Assembly: GCA_017882285.1 (NCBI GenBank)
Contig: JADGPS010000005.1
Coordinates: 2,680-66,679 of the forward strand
Length of the DNA stretch: 64,000 bases
Reading direction: 5' to 3'
Source: Paludibacter sp.
GTDB taxonomy: Bacteria; Bacteroidota; Bacteroidia; Bacteroidales; Paludibacteraceae
The notes under the pieces were generated by a model. The model ran no database searches and was not told the origin of the DNA. It saw only the letters and a list, made by a program, of their open reading frames with translations. The translations under genes were made by a program, and so were the position numbers. Shown piece after piece: positions 12,611 to 42,017 of this stretch (positions are counted from its first letter, which is position 1; each line of letters begins with the position of its first letter).

Positions 12611-12629
12611 CCTGCCTACCGCAGGCAGG
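12611..12629. repeat. REP-like palindrome CCTGCCTACCGCAGGCAGG (family A)
   Basis: 7-bp arms; about 60 bp including flanks matches 41980-42040 in reverse complement. Confidence 0.85.
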
Positions 12630-15098: not shown

Positions 15099-16391
15099 TT
15101 AATTACCAACACCTCTCAATAAATTTATATCGCCCTTTCTTAATTTCTCTCCTGTTCTTTCTTTTGTTATAGGATTTGGTTTTGAATTTGGGTCGAAGTC
15201 AGAACCGTAAGCTTTTATCACATAAAAATAAGGTCCGGCAACTGCATCTTTACCGTTTATTTTGCCGTCCCAACCTTTTGTTGGGTCTGTCCAGGTAAAA
15301 ACTAATCTTCCCCACCGGTTATAAACCCAACATTGAAAACTGATTAATGACTTATATGCAACCCGAAATTCATTATTAAAAATATCTCCATTAGGAGTAA
15401 ACACATTGGGAACCCAAATATCTGATTCAGAAACAGTAACAGTAATTGAATCAGAAAATGAACAAGTGCTGTTACTAACCGTAACTTTAACTTTATATGT
15501 TCCGGCTTGTGTAAATGTATATCGATGATCCTTATCTGTTCTGTTGATAACTAATTTATTGTCTTGATAAATGCCCCAGTTATAATATTGCGTAATCGGT
15601 TCATTTGCGTTACTCAAGAACTGTATATCCAATGGTGCTGAACCACTTACCTGAGATGCTTGAGATGGTCTTTCAGCCTCATTCTTTGCATCCCGAATCG
15701 TTACGATTGAAGTAGCATGACAAATTACAGCTACCGACGTATATTGTGAACTTGAAATACTAATTGGAGCCAATCCCAAATCGGTTGCAAACTGATCACC
15801 CGAAAGCGTAAAACTTGTATTACAAAAAGGCGCAGGAACTGATTTTTGAGTTGCTGATAATATTAAAGTTTGTATGGTATCAATTTGCTTCCATGAGGTC
15901 GTTTTGTCATCCCATGTAAGTGTTTTATATTTAATGCTAAAATCTCTTATAAGTATATGTGGATTCCCATCGACAGATTTATAGGTTAACTGAGGAACAT
16001 TCGCATCAATCAATAGTTTTACTTCTTCGCATTGCGAACCTGGATTATTTTCAGGTTCAATAGTACTTAAAACCGGAAGATTATTTTTATAATCAATCAC
16101 CCAAATATGTGTTACTTTGCCATCAACATTTAATATATATCCGGTGGCATCATCGGGCGAAATATAGGATTGATTGCTGATTGAAATAGTGGGATCAGTA
16201 AATTTATACCAATTAATGCTAGTTCCTGTTCCGGTGTAAGTAATTTCAGTTGAAGGGGTTATTCCATTAAAAACAAAAACATAATCGATTCCTGAAAAAG
16301 AAGTATAGAATTTACCTGAATTTGAGGTTAGTTGCGCAGTTGCAATCAATGCAATAGAAAAAAGGCAAATCGACAAAATGGTTTTTCTCAT
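15099..16391 (-). CDS. PKD-domain protein with T9SS type-B (gliding-motility C-terminal) sorting domain
   Basis: Probable start MRKTIL at 16391; PKD-like YTFTQAGTYKVKVTV; PNVFTPNGD, YNRWG, GWDG, YFY type-B CTD. Confidence 0.85.
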   Translation of the reverse strand: MRKTILSICLFSIALIATAQLTSNSGKFYTSFSGIDYVFVFNGITPSTEITYTGTGTSINWYKFTDPTISISNQSYISPDDATGYILNVDGKVTHIWVIDYKNNLPVLSTIEPENNPGSQCEEVKLLIDANVPQLTYKSVDGNPHILIRDFSIKYKTLTWDDKTTSWKQIDTIQTLILSATQKSVPAPFCNTSFTLSGDQFATDLGLAPISISSSQYTSVAVICHATSIVTIRDAKNEAERPSQASQVSGSAPLDIQFLSNANEPITQYYNWGIYQDNKLVINRTDKDHRYTFTQAGTYKVKVTVSNSTCSFSDSITVTVSESDIWVPNVFTPNGDIFNNEFRVAYKSLISFQCWVYNRWGRLVFTWTDPTKGWDGKINGKDAVAGPYFYVIKAYGSDFDPNSKPNPITKERTGEKLRKGDINLLRGVGN

Positions 16392-16556
16392 GGATGATGC
16401 GTAAAAATTGCTGAAATTATTTATCGTATGCAAATGTACATCTTTCTTATGAATAACAAAAAAAACGCCGAATTATTACCCTGAATCATTTGATAAACTA
16501 TATTTTTAGTATTTTTGTATTTCCAATAAAAATATCATTTGGTAACAGCAAATACA

Positions 16557-18368
16557 ATGAAAAAGAAACTATTTAGTTTGATGCTGACAGGCTTTATCCT
16601 ACTATCTTTCGCTACAGTTGGTCAAAAAGATAATTATCCGATAAGAAAAATCAAAGGCATTGAATATTATGTATATACAGTTCAAGCCAGTGAAGGATTA
16701 TTAGCTATTGGCAGGAAATTTGAAATTTCGCCCGAAGAAATCAGCAAGTTAAATCCTGAAATTCAAAATGGTCTGAAAGCTGGACAGGAAATACTAATTC
16801 AGATTCAGAAAAAATCAACCAAGAAAACAGAAAGCAAATCAAATCTGGACTTTATTCAACACAAGGTTGAAAAGAAGCAAACTCTTTTTGCAATTAGTCA
16901 TAAATACAGTGTCAGTCAAGAAGATATAAAGAAATTTAACCCCAACATTAAAACCGGATTGAGCGAAGGAATGATATTAAATATTCCTGATTCAACCAAA
17001 ATTAAAAAGCAGAAAGAAGCTGAAAATAAACAAATTTTTAAGCACAACACTACAGTATCAATAAAAAAACAGCAATTAATTACCCACAAAGTCAAGAAAA
17101 CCGAAACATTATTCTCAATTTGCAAACAATATAATGTCGATATTAACGAAGTTATCAGATTAAATCCGGGTTCAGAAACTAAAATTTCGGTTGGTTCAGA
17201 ATTAAAAATTCCAACAAATTCTGATATTTCAAAACAGAAAGAACAGAACAAAGAAAATGTTGAAAATAGTTTGAAATCAACGGTCGATATCAATAAATAC
17301 GTTGAGAAACCAAATAAAACGCAATATGCTGGAAATAAGAATATTCGTATTGCATTTTTGTTGCCGTTTATGCTTGATCAGGCTAAAAAAGAACTTGCTT
17401 TGGAGCGTTTTCAAAATTTTTATGCCGGAGCATTGTTAGCCATTCAATCTGCAAAAGAAAAAGGAATTTCATTTGAAATTTACACTTATGACACGGATAA
17501 AACCGAAGAAAAAATGACGGAAGTCCTGAATAATTCGGAATTAAAAACAATGGATTTAATTATAGGACCGGCTTTCAGCAATCAGGTGGACTTGGTTGCA
17601 AATTTTGCAAAAGGATCTAAAATAAAAACGTTAATCCCATTTACTTCAAAAGTACCTGATATTGAGAATAATCCATATCTTTTTCAATTCAATCCCGGTT
17701 CGGATACTGAATTAAAATATATGTTCGAGTTGATTAATGGGAAATTGAAAAATATACACTTCGTTTTTGCCGAAGTTCAGGGCGTTAGTCCGTTAGATGA
17801 TGGAAAAATCAGAGAAGAATCGTTAAAAATTGAACTTGCACGCCAGAGAAAATCATTTGGTATCATTGAATTAGGTTCGTCGGAGAATATTAATTTTAGT
17901 TCTGAATTAAAAAAAGGAGAAAAAAATCTGATAATTTTTGATACTGACAAATACTCAAATGTTAACGCATATATAAAAGCATTACTTTCAACGTCATCAG
18001 AATATGAAATTGTATTATTTGAACAATATAGTTGGAATAGTCAAATAGAAAAAAAACTGGAAAGTATTTATATTTCTCCTTTTATTTCAAATTTAAATGA
18101 ACAGTTGGTTGATGAGTACAACACCCGATTTGATCAATTCTTCGGAAAAGATGTTACAAACGATTCACCCCGATACGATATTTTGGGTTACGATTTGACC
18201 AATTATTTTATTACTTATATTAATCGGTTTGGGAATAAATTTGACACTAAAATAGGTTCTGTACATTCAATTCCAGGTATTCAATCTCAACCTTTATTCG
18301 AACGGATTTCAAATGAATCGGGATTTATAAATCAACGCGTTTATTTATCCGAAGAAAAAACACAATAA
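16557..18368 (+). CDS. LysM-repeat (x3) protein with periplasmic-binding-like C-terminal domain
   Basis: Three LysM-type repeats (YTVQASEGLLAIG, HKVEKKQTLFAIS, HKVKKTETLFSIC); IAFLLPF, DLIIGP; probable start MKKKLF at 16557. Confidence 0.85.
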   Translation: MKKKLFSLMLTGFILLSFATVGQKDNYPIRKIKGIEYYVYTVQASEGLLAIGRKFEISPEEISKLNPEIQNGLKAGQEILIQIQKKSTKKTESKSNLDFIQHKVEKKQTLFAISHKYSVSQEDIKKFNPNIKTGLSEGMILNIPDSTKIKKQKEAENKQIFKHNTTVSIKKQQLITHKVKKTETLFSICKQYNVDINEVIRLNPGSETKISVGSELKIPTNSDISKQKEQNKENVENSLKSTVDINKYVEKPNKTQYAGNKNIRIAFLLPFMLDQAKKELALERFQNFYAGALLAIQSAKEKGISFEIYTYDTDKTEEKMTEVLNNSELKTMDLIIGPAFSNQVDLVANFAKGSKIKTLIPFTSKVPDIENNPYLFQFNPGSDTELKYMFELINGKLKNIHFVFAEVQGVSPLDDGKIREESLKIELARQRKSFGIIELGSSENINFSSELKKGEKNLIIFDTDKYSNVNAYIKALLSTSSEYEIVLFEQYSWNSQIEKKLESIYISPFISNLNEQLVDEYNTRFDQFFGKDVTNDSPRYDILGYDLTNYFITYINRFGNKFDTKIGSVHSIPGIQSQPLFERISNESGFINQRVYLSEEKTQ

Positions 18369-18389
18369 ATAAATCTGAAAAATTATTTT

Positions 18390-19013
18390 ATGCGTAAACT
18401 CTTTATTCTCATATTTATAGCTATTAATGCAACACTCTCAGCTCAGGCAAGGCTTGATAACCCGGAAGTGTATGTGGGAGCTAACTTTGGTGTAACTGAA
18501 TCAATGGTTATGTTTACTCCTTCAGTAAGTCAAGGATTTTTAATGGGTTATAACGGTGGTATTGTTTTCCGGTATATTGCGGAGAAATATGTCGGTATGC
18601 AGGCCGAAATAAATTACAGTCAACGCGGTTGGACAGAATCTTCGGGTTTATACACACGTCAATTAAATTATATCGAACTCCCTTTTATGACTCATATTTA
18701 CATGGGCAAAAAGAGTCGTTTTTTTATCAATATCGGCCCAAAAGTAAGTTATTTACTTTCCGAAAAAGTAGTTTTAAATCAAAGTACTACTTCAGACACT
18801 CAACATATTACTGCCATTCAAAATCCTTTTGATTATGGACTTTGTGGTGGTTTAGGTTTGCTTTTCAATATAAAAGGAAATATTATTCAGCTTGAAACCC
18901 GCACCTATTATGGATTTAGTGATGTGTTTTCAAATAAGAAAACCGATTATTTCAGTAAATCCAATAATTTTAATTTAGCTGTTAATCTTGCCTGGATTTT
19001 ACAGATTAAATAA
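18390..19013 (+). CDS. Outer-membrane beta-barrel (PorT-like porin family)
   Basis: Signal peptide; GMQAEINYSQRGW, LNYIELP, FINIGP; alternating beta-strands. Confidence 0.75.
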   Translation: MRKLFILIFIAINATLSAQARLDNPEVYVGANFGVTESMVMFTPSVSQGFLMGYNGGIVFRYIAEKYVGMQAEINYSQRGWTESSGLYTRQLNYIELPFMTHIYMGKKSRFFINIGPKVSYLLSEKVVLNQSTTSDTQHITAIQNPFDYGLCGGLGLLFNIKGNIIQLETRTYYGFSDVFSNKKTDYFSKSNNFNLAVNLAWILQIK

Positions 19014-19034
19014 TAAAAAATTTGTTAGAAAGTT

Positions 19035-19156
19035 TACATTTTCAAAGTTTGCCAGGGCACGGAAGCAGAAAGAACACAGCGATTTATACACATATCACTA
19101 CCAAAGGTTTTGAAGAGAAAAAAAGTCCGTTAGACAACTTGAAGATTTATGAATAA
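19035..19156 (+). pseudogene. Tyrosine recombinase/integrase extreme C-terminal remnant
   Basis: YI-(2-nt slip)-QSLPGHGSRKNTAIYTHITTKGFEEKKSPLDNLKIYE*, matching the LGH...T.IYTH...SPLD end of Bacteroidota XerD/IntI-like integrases. Confidence 0.8.
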
Positions 19157-19423
19157 AACACTTGTTATGTAAAAATATAATATTATTTTTGGAAATTAAA
19201 TCAAATATCATAATAGAAATCAACATAATTGTATTTATTACAAATTTGGATATGTGGAACTGCATAAAATTTATAAATTTATATAACTATTTGAATTTAT
19301 GCGGAATAATATATTTAGATTATAAAGATAAGGCGAAAATAGGTGGAACTGATTCCGGATACAGAAATTGAGATGAAGATACACAGATGTTATAGGGCAT
19401 TTTAAAGAGACCGAAAAAAATCG

Positions 19424-19431
19424 TACATTTG
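19424..19431 (+). promoter_or_regulatory. -7 box (TACATTTG) 4 nt before the DUF488 ATG; likely leaderless transcript
   Basis: TAnnTTTG ends at 19431, ATG at 19436. Confidence 0.5.
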
Positions 19432-19435
19432 AAGT

Positions 19436-19987
19436 ATGAAAGAGGCAACAATATATTCTATAGGACACGGCAACAAAAAAATTGAGGACTTCATTAATGA
19501 ACTTAAGTCTTTCAATATTCTGTTTCTGCTTGACATTCGGTCAAAACCATTTTCAAAATGGAATCCTCAGTTTAATCAAAATGAACTAAAATTCAAAATA
19601 GAAGAAAATGGGATAAAATACGTTTATGTTGGTGACACGTTGGGTGGTCTTCCAGAAGACAGAACTTGCTATGATTACAATGGAAAAGTGGTTTATGACC
19701 TTATTAAGGAAAAGAATTTTTTTAAAGAGGGCTTAGAGAGACTTATAATTGCGAACGATAAAAATATAAATCTTGCAATCATGTGTAGTGAATCAAACCC
19801 TGAAGAATGCCATAGAAGTAAGTTAATTGGACAAGAATTACTCAAAAAGAAAATTTCTTTAAAACATATAATTTCAAACAAAGTTATTAAATCACAAGAA
19901 ATTGTGATGATTGAGTTAACAAAAGGCAAGGGAACAGTTGACCTTTTTGGTAATGAAATGGACTTTAGATCTCGCAAATCATACTAA
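19436..19987 (+). CDS. DUF488 family protein (copy 1)
   Basis: IYSIGHG, LLDIRSKPFS, LGG, AIMCSESNPEECHRSKLI. Confidence 0.88.
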   Translation: MKEATIYSIGHGNKKIEDFINELKSFNILFLLDIRSKPFSKWNPQFNQNELKFKIEENGIKYVYVGDTLGGLPEDRTCYDYNGKVVYDLIKEKNFFKEGLERLIIANDKNINLAIMCSESNPEECHRSKLIGQELLKKKISLKHIISNKVIKSQEIVMIELTKGKGTVDLFGNEMDFRSRKSY

Positions 19988-19989
19988 AT

Positions 19990-20466
19990 ATGAAATTTTT
20001 CACAATTGGAGTTTATAACTCAACAGAGCAAGAATATTTCAAAAAGCTCACTGATAATAATATTGATACTTTTTGTGATATTCGACAACGCAGAGGAGTT
20101 CGAGGCTCTCAATATGCCTTTGTAAACAGTAATAGGCTTCAGGCAAGGCTTAATGAGCTTGATATTAAATACGGACATATTATTGACCTTGCTCCAACAA
20201 CTGATATTAGAGAACTTCAAAAAGAAGTTGATAATCAGCAGGGTGAACTCAAAAGAGACAGAAACAAATTAGGTCAGGTTTTTACCATAGCTTATAAAGA
20301 CAGAATTTTGAGCAAATTCGATTTTGAGTCTTTTATAGACAAGTTAGATGAAGTTGGTGCAAATAAAGTTGTTTTGTTTTGTGTGGAGGAAAAGCCAGAA
20401 GCTTGTCATAGATCGATTGTGACTGACAAATTGGAAAAACTCGGATACGATATAACTCACTTATAA
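19990..20466 (+). CDS. DUF488 family protein (copy 2)
   Basis: FFTIGVY, FCDIRQRRGVRG, VLFCVEEKPEACHRSIV; starts 2 nt after the upstream stop. Confidence 0.85.
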   Translation: MKFFTIGVYNSTEQEYFKKLTDNNIDTFCDIRQRRGVRGSQYAFVNSNRLQARLNELDIKYGHIIDLAPTTDIRELQKEVDNQQGELKRDRNKLGQVFTIAYKDRILSKFDFESFIDKLDEVGANKVVLFCVEEKPEACHRSIVTDKLEKLGYDITHL

Positions 20467-21110
20467 TGGACGTAATAATAGTTTCAAAAACTCATATGTC
20501 TACTGCCGCTTGTGTTGGTGGAGTTCTTGCAAATGGTCGTTTTGTAAGATTACTTGACTCAAATGGTTACAATCAAAACAGTGATACTGACATTAATGTT
20601 GGTGATGTTTATACAATCACATTTGTTGAAAGACAGGATAAAAAACCACCTCATGTAGAAGACATTTTAGTCAACACAATGTCTTTTAAGTTCACTTTTT
20701 CTTCTATAGATGAAATGGTTGAATACTTGAAAGAAAAGTTGAAAGTTAAAATTTGGAAAGGAAGTACCGAAATTCTTTTTGATGGTAAACTTCAATGGAC
20801 AAGTGGAGGAAGTGGCTACATTTCAGAAAGTGGCGAAATACCTTATAATAGTGTTGGATTTTGGATACCGGATAAAGATTTGATTCGAAAAGATTATAAT
20901 GAAAAGGTAAGGTATAGTTATCCAATAAGATGGCGAAATATATCTTATGTTGGCTTCCTTAATCCACTTGATAAAATACCTGCAGGAACTTTGACAAGAG
21001 TTTCATTAGCAAGGTGGTGGTCTCCAAACGAAGATGAAGAAAGGTGCTATTTACAGTTATCTGGTTGGTATGGTTTACCCATCCAGTCGGATATATCTAA
21101 CACTGATTAA
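20466..21110 (+). CDS. Hypothetical protein resembling dual OB-fold (DuOB-like) nucleic-acid-binding domain
   Basis: TAATG overlap with upstream gene; IVSKTHM..ACVGG...VRL N-terminus, HVEDILV, RVSLARWW, CYLQLSGW; family call from recall only. Confidence 0.6.
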   Translation: MDVIIVSKTHMSTAACVGGVLANGRFVRLLDSNGYNQNSDTDINVGDVYTITFVERQDKKPPHVEDILVNTMSFKFTFSSIDEMVEYLKEKLKVKIWKGSTEILFDGKLQWTSGGSGYISESGEIPYNSVGFWIPDKDLIRKDYNEKVRYSYPIRWRNISYVGFLNPLDKIPAGTLTRVSLARWWSPNEDEERCYLQLSGWYGLPIQSDISNTD

Positions 21111-21168
21111 ATGTGCAATAGATCAGGCTTGGTTGTTGGGATTTTCTTTTAATCCCAACTCTTGTATT
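21104..21168 (+). repeat. 65-bp structured cassette-end repeat, copy 1 (homologous to 27749-27813 minus)
   Basis: TGATTAAATGTGCAA...TGGTTGTTGGGATTTTCTTTTAATCCCAACTCTTGTATT; 9-bp stem 21135-21143/21151-21159. Confidence 0.8.
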
Positions 21169-21174
21169 ACGAGG

Positions 21175-21259
21175 ACTTGCCTGCGGCAGGCAGGTTTTTC
21201 AATCCGATAAATAAATCGGTTTTAAGAATGCATTACAAACCTGCCTGCCGCAGGCAAGT
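21175..21259. repeat. REP doublet (BIME-like): two family-A palindromes as a perfect 21-bp inverted repeat
   Basis: ACTTGCCTGCGGCAGGCAGGT (21175-21195) and its exact reverse complement (21239-21259). Confidence 0.9.
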
Positions 21260-21326
21260 TCCACCTACAGTTCGCACCATTTATAACTATAATTGAGGGT
21301 ATATATCCGGAAGGACGAGAAATTAA

Positions 21327-21371
21327 TTTGCAACGCATTTGCTCGAAGCCGGAACTGATTTGCGGTATATC
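21327..21371 (+). pseudogene. Tyrosine recombinase box II remnant
   Basis: Translates FATHLLEAGTDLRYI. Confidence 0.8.
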
Positions 21372-21612
21372 AGAACAAAATTGTACTTCCTGCTCCAATT
21401 GTTTCAATTATCTTTGTTCAAAATTTCTTGTTTTAATTTCACGCCTTCATTCCTATTCTCATTTCAAAATTAAGAAGTTAATTATTATTAATGTGTTCTA
21501 AAACATGTTCTGCATTATTTATATAACTAAAATAAGCAGTATTTTTGGTCGACCAATCAGAAATTCGCCAACCTATTAAAAATCAATTACAAAATAACAT
21601 AAAAATAGAATA

Positions 21613-22455
21613 ATGAAAACGAACTATGAAATTCGGTATGCTTCACACCCTGAAGATGCGAAGAAGTACGACACTGCTCGCATACGAAAAGAATATTTAA
21701 TCGAAAAAATCTTTTCAGTGGATGAAGTAAATATGGTATATTCATTATACGACCGTTTGGTTGTTGGTGGTGCAATGCCTGTAAATCAAACTCTTACTCT
21801 CGAAACTATAGAACCATTGAAATCCGAATATTTCCTTTCACGCCGTGAATTCGGAACATTTAATGTTGGTGGAGCCGGAAAGGTAACTGTTGACGGAGTT
21901 GTCATCAATTTGGGATTTAAAGAAGCTTTATATTTGGGTGCAGGCGACCGCAAAGTAATGTTTGAGAGCATTGATGCTAAGAATCCTGCTAAATTTTACT
22001 TCAACTCTGCACCAGCTCACAAAAATTTTCAGGACAAAAAAATAACCAAAGCCGATGCCATTGTAGCAGAAATGGGTTCTTTAGAAGGTGCAAATCACCG
22101 AAATATTAATAAAATGTTGGTTTGTCAGGTTTTAGAAACATGCCAGTTACAAATGGGAATGACTGAATTAGCAGCGGGAAGCGTTTGGAATACTATGCCG
22201 GCTCATACTCACAGTCGCAGAATGGAAGCTTATTTTTATTTCGAAGTGCCCGTAGAAAATGCTGTTTGTCACTTTATGGGTGAACCGACCGAAACACGTC
22301 ATATATGGATGAAAGGTGACGAAGCGGTTATATCTCCTGAATGGTCAATTCACTCGGCAGCTGCAACCAGCAATTATACTTTTATCTGGGGAATGGCCGG
22401 TGAAAATCTCGATTATGGCGACCAGGATTTTTATAAAAATACGGAATTAAGATAA
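21613..22455 (+). CDS. kduI: 5-dehydro-4-deoxy-D-glucuronate isomerase
   Basis: [45 protein letters not shown]. Confidence 0.95.
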
Positions 22456-22556
22456 TAATTAGTTTGTAGTTTATAGTCTGTAGTTTATAGTAGAGGATAT
22501 TAAGCTGATACTATGGACGCAACTAACCAATTATACAAATAACCAACTAACAATAA

Positions 22557-23342
22557 ATGAATATGAATTTATTTGATTTAACAGGGAAAGTTGCATTTGT
22601 TACAGGTGCATCTTATGGAATAGGTTACGGATTAGCAAAAGCATTTGCTGCAGCTGGTGCAACCATCGTGTTTAACGACCTTAATCAGGAAAAAGTAGAA
22701 GGTGCAATCGCATCTTACAAAGCTGATGGAATTACCGCTCATGGTTACGTTTGCGATGTTACCGATGAGGAAGCCGTAATTGCTACAGTGGCTAAAATTA
22801 CCAAAGAAGTTGGTGTGATTGATATTTTGGTTAATAATGCCGGAATTATTAAACGTATTCCGATGGTTGAAATGACTGCAGCAGATTTTCGTCAGGTAAT
22901 TGATATCGATTTGAATGGACCATTCATCGTGTCAAAAGCAGTAATTCCCAACATGATTAAAAAAGGAGGTGGTAAAATCATCAATATTTGTTCTATGATG
23001 AGCGAATTAGGCCGCGAAACCGTTTCAGCTTACGCAGCTGCAAAAGGTGGGTTGAAAATGCTTACTAAAAATATAGCATCCGAATACGGTGAGTTTAATA
23101 TTCAGTGTAACGGCCTCGGCCCGGGTTATATTGCAACCCCACAAACAGCACCTTTAAGAGTAGAAGGTCATCCTTTCAACTCATTCATTATTGCTAAAAC
23201 TCCTGCTGCCCGATGGGGAACCCCTGAAGATTTGCAAGGTCCGGCTGTATTTCTCGCTTCTGCTGCTTCTGATTTTGTAAACGGACATATTTTATATGTT
23301 GACGGTGGCATTCTGGCTTATATCGGAAAACAACCCAAATAA
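22557..23342 (+). CDS. kduD: 2-deoxy-D-gluconate 3-dehydrogenase / gluconate 5-dehydrogenase SDR
   Basis: TGASYGIG, NNAGIIKRIPM, YAAAKGGLKMLT; follows kduI. Confidence 0.75.
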   Translation: MNMNLFDLTGKVAFVTGASYGIGYGLAKAFAAAGATIVFNDLNQEKVEGAIASYKADGITAHGYVCDVTDEEAVIATVAKITKEVGVIDILVNNAGIIKRIPMVEMTAADFRQVIDIDLNGPFIVSKAVIPNMIKKGGGKIINICSMMSELGRETVSAYAAAKGGLKMLTKNIASEYGEFNIQCNGLGPGYIATPQTAPLRVEGHPFNSFIIAKTPAARWGTPEDLQGPAVFLASAASDFVNGHILYVDGGILAYIGKQPK

Positions 23343-23349
23343 ATTTACA

Positions 23350-23370
23350 ACTTGCCTGCGGCAGGCAGGT
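23350..23370. repeat. REP-like palindrome (family A)
   Basis: ACTTGCCTGCGGCAGGCAGGT, identical to 21175-21195. Confidence 0.9.
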
Positions 23371-23396
23371 TTAATCATTTATAATTACTATTTGAA

Positions 23397-24527
23397 ATGA
23401 AAAAATCAGGATTATTAATTTTAGTTTCACTCCTTCTCGTTTCGGGTATTTTTGCTCAACGAACTATTGTTGTAACCAACAGTTTAGGAATTGACAGAAA
23501 AGGAGAAATTGTTGAAATCAGTTTATCAACATTTAAAGTTTCATTTGATTCAAAAACCTATGTTTTGAAAAACAATGAAAATAAAGAAGTTGGTTATCAA
23601 CTGGTTTTCAATGGAAATAAAAAACCACAATCATTTATTTTTCAGGTTGATGTAAAAGCAAATAAATCAAACAAATACACCTTGATTGAAGGAAAACCGG
23701 CAGTTGTAAAATCCAAAACATTTGCTCGTTTTGTCCCTGAACGCAAAGATGACTTTGCCTGGGAAAATGACTTGTGTGCCTATCGAATGTACGGGCCGGC
23801 ATTGGCAAATGAAAATCCAAGCAATGGCGTTGATCTTTGGGTCAAAAAAACAAACGAACTGATTGTAGATGAATTCTATAATGGTGAACTTAAGAATGGC
23901 ATTTCCTATCACGTGGATCATGGACATGGATTAGATTTATATAAAGTGGGCCATACATTAGGTTGTGGAGGAATTGCACCTTATTCTTCCAATAAACTTT
24001 GGGTTGAAAATCATTTCGATCATTACAAGGTTATTGAAGTTGGACCGCTTCGTTCTGTCTTCACATTGATTTATGATTCGGTAAAAGTGGGTGAATTGTT
24101 TTATAAACAAGAACTTACAATTACAACAAATGCAGGATCAATGCTTAATAAAGCCGAAGTAAAATACAGCGGTCCCGTTCAAAAATTGGAACTGGCAGCA
24201 GGCATTTTTCTTCATGATGGCAAAGGTACCTTGAAACAAATCATTTCAAACGGCACTTCTGCTTATGCCGAAGAAGCTGTTTCGGATGCAAAAGTTCCTT
24301 CAGGAAGAAATTACGTGGGATTTTATATTCCATCAAAAGTAAATGATGCTCGCAAAGAAGGTGAACATGGATTAATGACAAGTTCATATAAAGTTGGTGA
24401 TGCATTTACCTATTATTTTGGAGGCGGATGGAGCAAATGGGGCTACCCTAGCGACGATGCGTGGTTTAATGCTATAAACCGTTTCAGTGAAATTTCACGG
24501 AATCCGTTGAAAATTACTGTAAAATAA
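23397..24527 (+). CDS. DUF4861 family secreted protein
   Basis: Signal peptide; RFVPERKDDFAWEND...YRMYGP, DLYKVGHTLGCGG, YYFGGGWSK. Confidence 0.8.
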   Translation: MKKSGLLILVSLLLVSGIFAQRTIVVTNSLGIDRKGEIVEISLSTFKVSFDSKTYVLKNNENKEVGYQLVFNGNKKPQSFIFQVDVKANKSNKYTLIEGKPAVVKSKTFARFVPERKDDFAWENDLCAYRMYGPALANENPSNGVDLWVKKTNELIVDEFYNGELKNGISYHVDHGHGLDLYKVGHTLGCGGIAPYSSNKLWVENHFDHYKVIEVGPLRSVFTLIYDSVKVGELFYKQELTITTNAGSMLNKAEVKYSGPVQKLELAAGIFLHDGKGTLKQIISNGTSAYAEEAVSDAKVPSGRNYVGFYIPSKVNDARKEGEHGLMTSSYKVGDAFTYYFGGGWSKWGYPSDDAWFNAINRFSEISRNPLKITVK

Positions 24528-27748: not shown

Positions 27749-27813
27749 AATACAGAAGGTGGGATTAAAAAGAAAATCCCACCAACCAGTGCCAAACTTT
27801 GCTCACTTAATCA
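27749..27813 (-). repeat. 65-bp structured cassette-end repeat, copy 2
   Basis: Minus strand TGATTAAGTGAGCAA...TGGTTGGTGGGATTTTCTTTTTAATCCCACCTTCTGTATT. Confidence 0.8.
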
Positions 27814-33622: not shown

Positions 33623-33635
33623 TATATATAGAGTA

Positions 33636-33950
33636 GAGACGCCATTTCTCAACCGAAAGACCCTATTTCGTAATCGAGAGATACAATTTCTCAATCAAGA
33701 GTTGCTATTTCGCAACCAAGAGAAGCGATTTCGCTACCGTGAGACGCTATTTCGCAACCCAGAGACCCTATTTCGCAACCAAGAGACGCTATTTAGCAAC
33801 CGAGAGACGCCATTTCGCTATCAAGAGAAGCGATTTCGCTACCGAGAGACGCTATTTCGCAACCCAGAGATTCAATTTCGTAACCAAGAGACGCTATTTA
33901 GCAACCAAGAGACGCTATTTCTTGACTATGAGAAGCGATTTCGCTACTTA
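33636..33950. repeat. Tandem array of 15 degenerate 21-bp units (consensus GAGACGCTATTTCGCAACCAA)
   Basis: Units contiguous with no spacers; 105-bp higher-order period. Confidence 0.95.
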
Positions 33951-34381: not shown

Positions 34382-35560
34382 ATGGAGGCGTTTTATAAAA
34401 CACATACTTATTTAGTTGAACGTGTGCAGTCACCTGTAAGGCGTTTGTTGGTGGACGAAATTGACTGGACGCACCGCCTGATTGGTATCAAAGGCAGTCG
34501 CGGTGTGGGGAAGACAACCTTTTTACTCCAATATGCCAGGGATCATTTTGGTACCGACCGCACTTGTTTATATGTCAATTTCAATAACTTCTATTTCACT
34601 GAACATACTTTGGTTGAATTTGCCGGAGAATTTTGTGCTCAGGGAGGAAAAACCCTTCTACTCGATCAAATATTTAAATACGAAAACTGGTCGAGTGAAT
34701 TACGTGAATGTTATGACCGTTTTCCCGAACTGCATATCGTTTTTTCCGGTTCGTCGGTTATGCGTTTGAGAGAAGAAAATGCTGATCTTCAGGATGTAGT
34801 AGCTTCTTATAATTTACGTGGATTCTCATTCAGAGAGTTTTTGAATTTACAAGCCGGAACAAGTTTTCCTTCGTATTCTCTTGAAGAAATTATGCGCAAT
34901 CACGTGCAAATTGCTCAGGAAATTTGTAGGCAAGTTAAACCGCTCGAATATTTTCAACCTTATTTGCATCACGGTTTTTATCCTTTCTTTCTGGAAGATA
35001 AGAATTTTTCCGAAAACCTGCTGAAAACTATGAACATGATGATGGAAGTGGATATTTTGCTTATCAAGCAAATTGAATTAAAATACCTGACTAAAATACG
35101 GAAATTACTTTATTTAATTATGAATTCTGCTCCCGGAGCTCCCAATGTAAGTCAGTTAAGCAAAGAAATTGAAACTTCGCGGGCAACCATCATGAATTAC
35201 ATCAAATACCTGAAAGATGCCCGTTTGTTGAATACATTGTATGTCGAAGGAGATGAATATCCGAAAAAACCGAATCAGGTGTATGTACACAATACGAATC
35301 TGATGCACGTTGTAAGTCCGGAAAATGTTGATAAAACGGCTGAACGCAAAACATTTTTTTACAATGCTTTACATGCATGTCACAAAGTGAATATGTGTAA
35401 ATATCAGATGGATTTTTGTATTGATCAGCAATATCATTTCAAGTGTGAAAACAGACCGGAAACCGGAAAACATTATTCAAAAGCAAATTATGCTGCCGAT
35501 AATATTGAGGTGGGAAATAAAAATGAAATACCTTTGTGGTTGTTCGGATTCCTCTACTGA
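34382..35560 (+). CDS. AAA_14 family ATP-binding protein (DUF4143-like C-terminus)
   Basis: GSRGVGKTT Walker A, LLLDQIFKY Walker B region, VFSGSS, HHGFYPF; -7 box TAATTTTG at 34356-34363. Confidence 0.85.
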   Translation: MEAFYKTHTYLVERVQSPVRRLLVDEIDWTHRLIGIKGSRGVGKTTFLLQYARDHFGTDRTCLYVNFNNFYFTEHTLVEFAGEFCAQGGKTLLLDQIFKYENWSSELRECYDRFPELHIVFSGSSVMRLREENADLQDVVASYNLRGFSFREFLNLQAGTSFPSYSLEEIMRNHVQIAQEICRQVKPLEYFQPYLHHGFYPFFLEDKNFSENLLKTMNMMMEVDILLIKQIELKYLTKIRKLLYLIMNSAPGAPNVSQLSKEIETSRATIMNYIKYLKDARLLNTLYVEGDEYPKKPNQVYVHNTNLMHVVSPENVDKTAERKTFFYNALHACHKVNMCKYQMDFCIDQQYHFKCENRPETGKHYSKANYAADNIEVGNKNEIPLWLFGFLY

Positions 35561-35569
35561 AAAAGATGG

Positions 35570-35607
35570 CCCCAAACCCTGCCTGCGGCAGGCATGCCCT
35601 AAAGGGG
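35570..35607. repeat. Family-B repeat (CCCCAAACCCCTAAAGGGG type) with a family-A REP inserted
   Basis: CCCAAACCC-TGCCTGCGGCAGGCATGC-CCTAAAGGGG; related copies at 25401-25413, 35686-35707, 35752-35771, 42056-42074. Confidence 0.65.
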
Positions 35608-41996: not shown

Positions 41997-42017
41997 GCTT
42001 GTCTGCGGCAGGCAGGT
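41997..42017. repeat. REP-like palindrome (family A, degenerate)
   Basis: GCTTGTCTGCGGCAGGCAGGT within a ~60-bp match to 12590-12650 (reverse complement). Confidence 0.8.

What the first reader, a model, noticed from the sequence alone, without database searches (positions are those of the whole stretch)
19035..21371. Accessory operon bracketed by two integrase fragments in permuted order
Upstream fragment 19035-19156 is YI..QSLPGHGSRKNTAIYTHITTKGFEEKKSPLDNLKIYE*. Downstream fragment 21327-21371 is FATHLLEAGTDLRYI. In an intact tyrosine recombinase the downstream piece directly precedes the upstream piece, and they meet at 'YI'. This is what would result from a circular integrase-plus-cargo intermediate integrating through a crossover inside the integrase gene. 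It could also come from collapse of tandem integrase-cassette units. Neither fragment is in the ORF track.
Basis: partly seen in the sequence, partly recalled or inferred. Interest (0 to 1): 0.75.

Follow-up and report, generated by a model that had tools for sequence, protein, structure and literature searches.

The report
Mobile integrase-less cassette-capture module
The two integrase scraps are the ends of a 2.3-kb insertion, absent from a 98.7%-identical strain, that carries the dead tail of an integron-like recombinase gene plus its still-usable cassette docking site, into which a candidate phage-defence operon was captured.

Summary
Window 19045-19156 encodes the last about 35 codons of a tyrosine recombinase, and 21327-21369 encodes the 15 codons that precede them. 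A 98.7%-identical metagenome contig (L097) lacks exactly the 2,328 nt between them, with a 3-nt TCA overlap. More distant relatives carry the same unoccupied sequence. So the segment is an insertion whose ends are circular permutations of one roughly 50-codon integrase remnant. The left "YI" is chromosomal, not integrase.

The integrase belongs to a large (454-558 aa) XerA/IntI-like family, mainly Bacteroidota. These genes head same-strand cassette arrays through an attI (palindrome plus G|TT) 40-250 nt after the stop codon. They lack the IntI-specific insertion.

The DUF488-DUF488-DuOB operon is a separate integron-type cassette inserted at that G|TT (19388|19389). One soil metagenome holds the empty site, the module without the operon, and the module with it. 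A 97%-identical strain (L098) has other cassettes at the same site.

How the module integrated is unresolved. I found no description of this platform family in the paper library.

The parts
18390..19013 (+). Left flank: outer-membrane beta-barrel protein gene (chromosomal)
   Evidence: Pfam OMP_b-brl_2, E 6e-30. It is 97-98% identical in L097 and L098.
19014..19044 (.). Left half of the chromosomal target site (attB-left), ending in TCA at 19042-19044.
   Evidence: Identical in the unoccupied L097. Related sequence is present in L100/L101.
19045..19156 (+). Decayed 3' end of the recombinase gene: (Q)SLPGHGSRKNTAIYTHITTKGFEEKKSPLDNLKIYE*, about residues 512-546 of L020
   Evidence: tblastn E 7e-23, mapping. 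It is 73-78% nt identity to the best-matching family members, with substitutions at near-invariant positions.
19157..19388 (+). Spacer with the attI region. The cassette crossover lies between G19388 and T19389 (GATG|TTATAGGGC).
   Evidence: Homology of all copies of the operon starts at this G|TT. Contigs in run X4 match the window only from 19389. Family members have a palindrome plus GTTRRRY 40-250 nt after the stop codon.
19389..21077 (+). Captured cassette, truncated at its 3' end: DUF488 (19436-19987), DUF488 (19990-20466), DuOB (20466-21110, whose last 11 codons come from the tail)
   Evidence: Pfam hits. PADLOC candidates PDC-M45B and PDC-M45C. Homologues are 220-224 aa against 214 here. 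Homology to relatives is lost at 21077/21078. The joint 19392->21078 in run X2 removes exactly this block.
21078..21326 (+). 'Tail': a long imperfect hairpin that looks like an attC (arms about 21075-21096 and 21301-21322). It encloses two host-type palindromes (21135-21159, and 21175-21197/21237-21259).
   Evidence: Inverted repeats I8 and I1. DNA fold -51.8 kcal/mol, z -8.1. It is 92.5% identical to L098 9455-9688, where it follows another cassette. Copies of the palindromes occur elsewhere in the window.
21327..21369 (+). Recombinase-gene piece FATHLLEAGTDLRY(I), about residues 497-511. Its sequence is intact.
   Evidence: tblastn E 1e-6. 84-86% nt identity to Paludibacter-type integrases. 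It starts at the same codon (F497, TTTGCAAC) as the stand-alone remnant in L014.
21370..21400 (.). Right half of the target site (attB-right), beginning with the second TCA (21370-21372)
   Evidence: Collinear with L097 from 5653 onward. TCAGAACAAAA(T/G)TGTAC is conserved in L100/L101.
21613..22455 (+). Right flank: kduI (chromosomal)
   Evidence: Pfam KduI. Porin-kduI synteny holds in 11 relatives.

Best explanation
Window 19045-21372 is an insertion of a non-autonomous module derived from an integron-like platform that is common in Bacteroidota. In that platform a large XerA/IntI-like tyrosine recombinase gene is followed, on the same strand, by a spacer. The spacer ends in a palindrome and a G|TT crossover point (attI). 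Cassettes carrying attC hairpins are inserted there. The module in the window keeps only the dead last 35 codons of the recombinase gene, the attI spacer, an attC-like 'tail', and the 15 recombinase codons that normally precede the 35. These two gene pieces sit at opposite ends and join into one stretch. The module, or a larger array it was trimmed from, therefore most likely entered the porin-kduI spacer as a circle opened inside that stretch, at a 3-nt TCA overlap with the target. The DUF488-DUF488-DuOB candidate defence operon was captured afterwards at the module's attI by ordinary G|TT cassette recombination. A recombinase encoded elsewhere would have had to do this. The cassette later lost its own attC and its last codons. 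Shown: the insertion polymorphism, the exact junctions, the identity of the pieces, the cassette boundary, and the turnover of cassettes at this site. Inferred: the circular intermediate, the order of events, the trans-acting recombinase, and whether integration was site-specific or microhomology-driven.
For: Empty site: L097 is collinear with the window up to 19044 and again from 21370, with 3 nt shared. The same joint is seen at depth 32 in run X2. The unoccupied sequence is ancestral, because L100/L101 have it too. The pieces map to residues 497-511 and about 512-546 of one family, and both match Paludibacter-type members best. Family platform: 80 loci were recovered, and most of them carry a full-length or nearly full-length recombinase reading frame. 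In L019, L020 and L021 the 454-558-aa gene is followed by same-strand ORF arrays. Their spacers end in a palindrome plus GTTR. GTTR 9-mers in the spacer have an exact reverse complement 150-2500 nt downstream in 20 of 97 cases, against 224 of 10163 for other 9-mers (odds ratio 11.5, p 8e-14). attC hairpins are seen in L020 and L098. Cassette nature of the operon: it sits in arrays with about 130-nt R''/R' hairpins in L005-L012, and homology starts at G|TT in every copy. Capture after insertion: run X2 holds a form with attI joined directly to the tail (joint 19392->21078, depth 7) beside the occupied form. Turnover: L098 has the same left junction and the same tail but three other cassettes. 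Its remnant and spacer are divergent (72% and 59% identity, against 97% in the flanks and 92.5% in the tail). Similar remnant-plus-attI units lie between cassettes in L004, L013 and L064.
Against: No circular form was seen; only assembled contigs were available. The junction does not use the canonical G|TT. Only TCA is shared, and joining the ends leaves the frame one nucleotide short. The two pieces have decayed unequally: 0 of 15 against about 8 of 35 residues differ from the family consensus. This sits badly with one recent circle and suggests later exchange at one end. No recombinase of this family is in the 64-kb window, so action in trans is assumed. The triad-less and empty-site joints each rest on one short contig with 27-30 nt on the shorter side. 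The right end of the L098 array could not be retrieved.
Confidence: 0.6

Rival explanations
1. Split integrase gene, as in the archaeal virus SSV1. A circle carrying a whole recombinase gene plus cargo integrated through an attP inside the gene, splitting it. The N-terminal 496 codons were deleted later, for instance by recombination between the tail's attC and the G|TT of codons S496-F497.
For: The junction lies in recombinase-derived sequence and the pieces are permuted. The right piece starts exactly at F497, next to an attC-like hairpin. The same boundary occurs in L014, and family members read CATAG|TTTTGCC there. The right piece is undecayed.
Against: Only 50 of about 550 codons are present. 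Intact family genes sit unsplit at the head of arrays in the genomes examined. Truncated remnants followed by an attI spacer occur inside or at the start of other arrays. The target is not a tRNA gene. Of the loci examined, only the window has a piece ending at residue 511.
Confidence: 0.15
2. Chance break. A circle popped out of a multi-unit array by homologous recombination between neighbouring remnants. It was then inserted by illegitimate, microhomology-mediated joining that happened to open it inside the remnant. No site-specific step occurred at this junction.
For: Only 3 nt (TCA) are shared by target and element, and there is no G|TT at the junction. Across 71 loci, the spacer downstream of the gene, which holds attI, resembles the RYIQ-coding DNA no more than it resembles other parts of the gene. 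Multi-unit arrays that could shed such circles exist in L004, L013, L064 and L098.
Against: The remnant makes up only about 155 of 2,325 nt of the insert as it now stands, so a random break would fall inside it roughly 1 time in 15. L098 carries a clearly different remnant and spacer (72% and 59% identity) at the very same junction. That points either to reuse of the site or to later exchange. The target is AT-rich with imperfect dyad symmetry.
Confidence: 0.25
3. In-place decay. An integron-like platform with a full gene and array once lay between the porin gene and kduI, and the two pieces are leftovers of two different gene copies after deletions. L097 would then be a further deletion.
For: The two pieces have decayed unequally. 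L098 shows a larger, multi-unit array at this site.
Against: The unoccupied sequence, including bases on both sides of the junction, is conserved in relatives at 71% porin identity that carry no trace of the element. The deletion endpoints would have to coincide at the same codon in two copies.
Confidence: 0.05
4. Assembly chimera or chance similarity.
For: The region 21107-21318 is repetitive. Contigs from run X1 (the run with 98% of the sampled words) break there, and only 49-193-nt contigs bridge it.
Against: The left junction and the operon lie on an independent contig, L001. The left junction and the tail recur in L098 from another study. The E-values are 7e-23 and 1e-6.
Confidence: 0.02

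Closest known systems
Integrons (IntI, attI, attC cassettes), especially chromosomal integrons whose integrase points the same way as the cassettes, and integrase-less remnants (In0, CALIN)
   Same: A tyrosine recombinase gene lies next to a docking site. Cassettes are inserted at 5'-G|TT-3'. Cassettes end in imperfect hairpins with complementary R''/R' boxes. Arrays consist of unrelated, mostly defence-type and secreted-protein genes on one strand. The same cassette (DUF488-DUF488-DuOB) occurs in arrays with classic-looking attC sites.
   Different: The recombinase lacks the IntI-specific insertion: 22 aa where VchIntIA has 60. It scores below the NCBIfam integron-integrase cut-off, 213 against 265 bits. 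It has 170-280 extra N-terminal residues. attI is a palindrome plus GTT placed after the stop codon. Remnants of the gene's 3' end travel together with attI and are repeated inside arrays. IntegronFinder-based surveys report almost no integrons in Bacteroidetes (PMC9024848).
SSV1-type integrases of archaeal viruses (attP inside the int gene, gene split on integration); this comparison is from my own knowledge
   Same: The integrated DNA is flanked by the C-terminal-coding part on the left and the part that precedes it on the right.
   Different: Only 50 codons are present, not a whole gene. The target is not a tRNA gene. The host is a bacterium. Intact family genes are unsplit in the genomes examined.
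Xer-dependent integrating elements (IMEX) and the pdif modules of Acinetobacter plasmids; from my own knowledge, and PMC12907356 (abstract seen)
   Same: Small modules without their own recombinase are moved by a Xer-type enzyme supplied in trans. The closest solved relative of this family is XerA (5HXY).
   Different: No dif-like 11-6-11 site was demonstrated at either junction. The module carries an attI for cassette capture.
tpnF (tnpF/xerD)-tet(X3) unit of Acinetobacter plasmids
   Same: TnpF is a 221-aa truncated member of this recombinase family (77% identical over the last 91 aa). It is followed after about 175 nt by TATACGCCATTTGGCGTATAGCCACTT|GTTATGTGCC and then tet(X3), the same gene-end, attI, cassette layout.
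   Different: There the unit is moved by ISCR2 (PMC7722449). No permuted ends are seen.

Membership tests
Integron (sensu IntegronFinder/IntI) | Integrase of the IntI clade with the IntI-specific additional domain | tested here: not met
   Family members L019-L021 score 209-213 bits against TIGR02249, whose cut-off is 265, and match it in two stretches. Against VchIntIA (2A3V), the residues between query 355 and 378 replace IntI residues 186-245. The window itself has no integrase gene.
Integron (sensu IntegronFinder/IntI) | attI next to the integrase gene, with cassette insertion at G|TT | tested here: met
   In the window the boundary is at 19388|19389. Family spacers end in a palindrome plus GTTR.
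Integron (sensu IntegronFinder/IntI) | Cassettes bounded by attC hairpins with complementary R'' (RYYYAAC) and R' (GTTRRRY) | tested here: met
   Met in relatives: L005-L012, L020, L098, with enrichment p 8e-14. In the window the operon's own attC is missing, and the tail is only attC-like.
Integron (sensu IntegronFinder/IntI) | attC recombines as a folded bottom strand with extrahelical bases | not testable with these tools
   Needs recombination assays.
SSV-type split-integrase element | The two flanking pieces together make a complete integrase gene | tested here: not met
   Only residues about 497-546 of about 547 are present.
SSV-type split-integrase element | Integration into a tRNA gene | tested here: not met
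   No tRNA gene in 17000-23500. The target is the porin-kduI spacer.
Xer-dependent element (IMEX / dif module) | Junctions at a dif-like site (two about 11-bp arms around a 6-8-bp centre) | tested here: inconclusive
   The target is AT-rich with imperfect dyads (and by eye). The element side shows no dyad, and only TCA is shared.
DDE transposon / insertion sequence | Terminal inverted repeats and a transposase gene | tested here: not met
   No terminal inverted repeat joins the ends. The insert has no ORF beyond the three cargo genes.
PADLOC candidate defence system PDC-M45 | Matches to the PDC-M45 component models | tested here: inconclusive
   The two DUF488 proteins match PDC-M45B (E 9e-49) and PDC-M45C (E 5e-15). 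The DuOB protein matches no PADLOC model. Function was not tested.

The most novel reading that the evidence does not exclude
Bacteroidota carry a widespread integron-like system that has gone unrecognised. It is built on a large XerA-like recombinase without the IntI insertion. Its docking site, together with the dead 3' end of the recombinase gene, is itself mobile. Small integrase-less circles seed new 'orphan' cassette-capture sites at fresh chromosomal positions. Recombinases encoded elsewhere then load and swap defence and other cassettes at those sites. The tpnF-tet(X3) unit now spreading in Acinetobacter would be a fragment of such a platform.
Probability: 0.35. Interest if true: 0.85.

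Novelty: new variant of a known kind. Interest (0 to 1): 0.7.

Why it matters
Standard integron searches require the IntI-specific domain and report almost no integrons in Bacteroidetes (PMC9024848). The data here point to a parallel cassette system in that phylum. It has its own recombinase type and its own attI, and it shares cassettes with classic-looking arrays. The window shows something not described for integrons in the papers I could search: the docking site travelling without its integrase and still turning over cassettes in natural populations. Empty, bare, loaded and differently loaded forms were all seen among near-identical strains. If this holds, it explains the many stand-alone 46-91-aa 'integrase' ORFs annotated in Bacteroidota genomes, and the contig breaks found just after these genes. 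It also gives a natural origin for the recombinase fragment that accompanies tet(X3). Finally, it offers a way to find defence cassettes in Bacteroidota by walking from these remnants.

Tried and rejected
1. I tested whether the RYIQS-coding DNA of the recombinase gene mimics attI, which would make it a built-in secondary site. Single cases looked striking: L015 (TTGCGTATATCCAATCGTT against TTGCGGTATATCCAGAGTT) and L020 (GAGTTTATTG). Across 71 loci, however, local alignments of the gene's 3' end against the spacer are no better than shuffles (median z 0.2). The RYIQ window is also no better matched than other 21-nt windows. Rejected as a general rule.

2. The porin next to the array in L002 is not an orthologue of the window's porin (21% identity). 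There is no shared hotspot gene.

3. Exact-protein look-ups of the porin, KduI and DuOB found only the source sample.

4. I tried to reach the right end of the L098 array through KduI homologues. The database is clustered at 90% identity, and the best hit (P0241) lies in an unrelated context.

5. tRNA and Rfam scans of the region found nothing. The only hits were sub-threshold microRNA models on the palindrome.

6. A DDE-transposon reading of the TCA repeat as a 3-bp target duplication fails, because there are no terminal inverted repeats and no transposase.

7. Six literature searches found no description of this platform family and no paper on DuOB together with DUF488. A further search on DUF488 and phage defence returned nothing relevant to DUF488.
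Full report
WHAT IS IN THE SEQUENCE

On the + strand, 19045-19156 reads (Q)SLPGHGSRKNTAIYTHITTKGFEEKKSPLDNLKIYE*, and 21327-21371 reads FATHLLEAGTDLRYI. A tblastn of the joined peptide against the whole window finds only these two places (E 7e-23 and 1e-6; the next hit has E 0.15). Between them lie three genes: DUF488 (19436-19987), DUF488 (19990-20466) and a dual-OB 'DuOB' protein (20466-21110). After these comes a 250-nt structured stretch with a perfect 23-nt inverted repeat. The flanks are an outer-membrane beta-barrel gene and kduI.

IT IS AN INSERTION, AND THE JUNCTIONS ARE EXACT

A scan of metagenome contigs with the porin protein gave 18 loci. L097 is 98.7% identical to the window over 16000-19044 and 97.8% identical over 21370-22247. 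The two alignments overlap by 3 nt in L097.

- Unoccupied site: AAAGTTTACATTTTCAGAACAAAATTGTAC.
- Window, left junction: ...ACATTTTCA|AAGTTTGCCAGGGCAC.
- Window, right junction: ...GATTTGCGGTATATCA|GAACAAAATTG.

The window therefore has 2,328 extra nucleotides, counting one copy of a shared TCA.

The unoccupied sequence is ancestral. Relatives with only 71% porin identity (L100, L101) read CACTATTTCAGAACAAAAGTGTACATCCTGCT at the same place. Porin-kduI synteny without an insert is the rule in 11 loci.

This corrects one detail of the finding. The left 'YI' (TTTACATT, in another frame) is chromosomal. The true left piece starts at 19045.

Joined end to end, the insert's termini give ...GGTATATCA·AAGTTTGCC. 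This is a continuous FATHLLEAGTDLRYI-(Q)SLPGH... stretch that is one nucleotide short in the Gln codon.

WHAT THE INTEGRASE IS

The joined peptide retrieved 121 clusters of short (46-91 aa) stand-alone 'tyrosine recombinase' ORFs, mostly from Bacteroidota. Their consensus is ...VHTLRHSFATHLLEnGTDLRYIQSLLGHxSSKTTEIYTHITTKGFDQIKSPLDNLxI*.

A scan of one genome per species matched more than 600 stretches, and I kept the best 80 loci. Most of them carry a full-length or nearly full-length recombinase reading frame. In L019, L020 and L021 the gene encodes 454-558 aa and is followed by runs of ORFs on the same strand.

These proteins hit the XerA/integron-integrase models best, but below the cut-offs: 213 bits against 220 and 265. 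Their closest solved relatives are XerA (5HXY) and VchIntIA (2A3V). Against VchIntIA the alignment breaks where the IntI-specific insertion lies, with 22 residues in place of 60. They also carry 170-280 extra N-terminal residues. They are therefore integron-like but are not IntI.

THE PLATFORM

Downstream of the stop codon, family members have a 40-250-nt spacer. It ends in a palindrome (for example TATACGCAATATTGCGTATA) followed a few bases later by GTTRRRY.

In L020 the first cassette begins GTTACAGCC and ends GGCTGTAAC 742 nt later. A 22-nt-arm hairpin follows the next ORF.

Over 38 loci, spacer 9-mers that begin with GTTR have an exact reverse complement 150-2500 nt downstream in 20 of 97 cases. 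For other 9-mers the figure is 224 of 10163 (odds ratio 11.5, p 8e-14). This is the signature of integron cassettes.

The window's 19157-19388 spacer ends ...GGATACAGAAATTGAGATGAAGATACACAGATG|TTATAGGGC. It resembles the L023 and L098 versions.

THE OPERON IS A SEPARATE CASSETTE

DuOB homologues are 68-95% identical across distant taxa. The three genes always travel together. They sit in same-strand arrays of unrelated genes: DarT-Macro, GmrSD, DndB-like, AAA-RloB and others.

In L005-L012 the operon is bounded by 130-nt hairpins running from R'' GCACCCCAAC to R' GTTAT/GTTGGGG. In all copies, homology begins exactly at G|TT, which is window 19388|19389.

Contigs of run X4 carry the operon in another context and match the window only from 19389.

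The window copy is damaged. DuOB is 214 aa instead of 220-224. Homology to relatives stops at 21077, where the 'tail' begins, and the cassette's own attC is gone.

The two DUF488 proteins match the PADLOC candidates PDC-M45B and PDC-M45C. A defence role is plausible but untested.

POPULATION VARIANTS

Run X2 (a soil metagenome) holds three forms side by side:

- the empty site (joint 19041->21370, depth 32);
- a form in which attI is joined directly to the tail (joint 19392->21078, depth 7);
- the loaded form (depth 5-12).

L098, whose flanks are 97% identical to the window, has the same left junction and the same tail (92.5% identity). In between it has a divergent remnant (72% identity), an unalignable spacer (59%), and three other cassettes. 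Those cassettes have a clear attC, from R'' CGCTAAC to R' GTTATGC, whose stem folds.

After the tail, L098 continues with a second, shorter remnant, joined at CC|GTTAGAC in the P-L-D codons. A second spacer and more cassettes follow.

So cassettes, and even whole remnant-plus-attI units, are exchanged at this site, although the window encodes no recombinase.

REMNANT UNITS ELSEWHERE

L004, L013 and L064 carry 5'-truncated remnants followed by the attI spacer between cassettes. L014 and L015 carry one at the start of an array.

The 5' ends of these remnants vary (residues 464, 466, 470, 493, 493, 496, 501, 501, 520 and about 527). The 3' end and the spacer are constant. The window's right piece and the L014 remnant start at the same codon (F497, TTTGCAAC), next to hairpins.

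Many assemblies break 270-540 nt after the stop codon, as expected for a repeated sequence.

HOW IT MOST LIKELY WORKS

The module is: remnant 512-546, attI spacer, [cassette], attC-like tail, remnant 497-511. It is best read as a circle that was opened inside its roughly 50-codon remnant. Such circles could arise from multi-unit arrays by recombination between neighbouring remnants.

Integration used only a TCA overlap and not the canonical G|TT. The enzyme and the mechanism are therefore open. It could have been a non-canonical site-specific event or microhomology joining.

I tested one attractive idea, that the RYIQS-coding DNA mimics attI. It does not hold across 71 loci.

Cassette capture at the orphan attI by a recombinase acting in trans is inferred from the variants above.

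One observation remains unexplained. The right piece is pristine (0 of 15 residues off the consensus), while the left piece is decayed (about 8 of 35, including near-invariant positions). This suggests later exchange at one end, as seen in L098.

COMPARISON WITH KNOWN SYSTEMS

The logic is that of an integron. The recombinase, however, fails the defining IntI test, and the mobile 'remnant plus attI' unit has no counterpart that I could find. Seven full-text searches returned nothing on it. IntegronFinder 2.0 reports only In0 elements and one complete integron in Bacteroidetes.

The split-gene picture of SSV1 fits in form only. Fifty codons are present rather than a whole gene, and the target is not a tRNA gene.

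A side result concerns 'TnpF', the gene upstream of tet(X3) on Acinetobacter plasmids. It is a truncated member of this family, followed by a typical attI and G|TT before tet(X3). Published work treats that unit as ISCR2 cargo (PMC7722449).

VERDICT

The circular-permutation reading is supported, but for an integrase-less docking module rather than an integrase-plus-cargo element. The cargo is an independently captured cassette.

This is a new variant of a known kind, with a fair chance of pointing to an undescribed phylum-wide system. Interest 0.7.

The host is probably a Paludibacteraceae-like member of the Bacteroidales from permafrost, peat or soil. This rests on the best named KduI and integrase relatives and on the sample labels.

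Noticed in passing
window 12611-12629, 21176-21194, 21240-21258, 23351-23369, 35578-35596, 41998-42016: A GC-rich palindrome (CCTGCCTGCCGCAGGCA) recurs at six intergenic places: 12 strand-matches against 0.04 expected. It looks like a REP or terminator family of this genome. Two inverted copies sit inside the inserted module's tail.
   Followed up: partly
window 21135-21159 and 27768-27788: A second small hairpin (GTTGGGATT...AATCCCAAC) in the tail has a 95%-identical 21-nt copy elsewhere in the window. It reads like an R'/R'' pair with nothing between.
   Followed up: no
window 33635-33921: A tandem array of a 21-nt unit (AGAGACGCTATTTCGCAACCA), 13.7 copies at 78% match, lies in the gap between two ORFs, upstream of the ORF at 34382-35560. 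Purpose unknown.
   Followed up: no
L016 (FJ012881 plasmid pHH1107) 4608-6629: 'TnpF' upstream of tet(X3) is a 221-aa truncated member of the same recombinase family. It is followed by a palindrome, G|TTATGTGCC and tet(X3). A possible R'' (GGCTACTAAC) lies after the stop codon. The resistance gene looks like a first cassette of such a platform.
   Followed up: partly
L019, L020, L021 and other full-length family genes (N-terminal 170-280 aa): The N-terminal extension seems to contain two or three copies of a roughly 40-aa module (..I.I.F.Y....I..I....W......W.VP). It matches no Pfam family. tblastn shows residues 2-60 aligning a second time further along in many loci.
   Followed up: no
L002 6487-13845: The closest copy of the operon (95% identity) sits in an array with HTH, DUF3267, DarT-Macro (DarTG-like) and other small genes. 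These are separated by repeated motifs, including ACCCGCAAGTYGGGTTTCRGTGCTTCGTTGACA, which also occurs inside the L098 attC.
   Followed up: partly
L013 9890-10000 and 12290-12400; L064 7640-7700 and 8660-8720: Remnant units in two unrelated genomes share a leader beginning GAGTAGACGRC, upstream of the truncated gene piece. This suggests a conserved element that travels with the unit.
   Followed up: no
L058, L071, L083, L086, L089: Family members also occur in a few Firmicutes contigs (Herbinix, Paenibacillus, Clostridia, Vallitalea, Oscillospiraceae). This could be horizontal spread or mis-binning.
   Followed up: no
window 19423-19430: TAcaTTTG lies just upstream of the first DUF488 start codon and is conserved in all copies of the cassette. 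It fits the Bacteroidetes -7 promoter motif (from my own knowledge), so the cassette may carry its own promoter.
   Followed up: no
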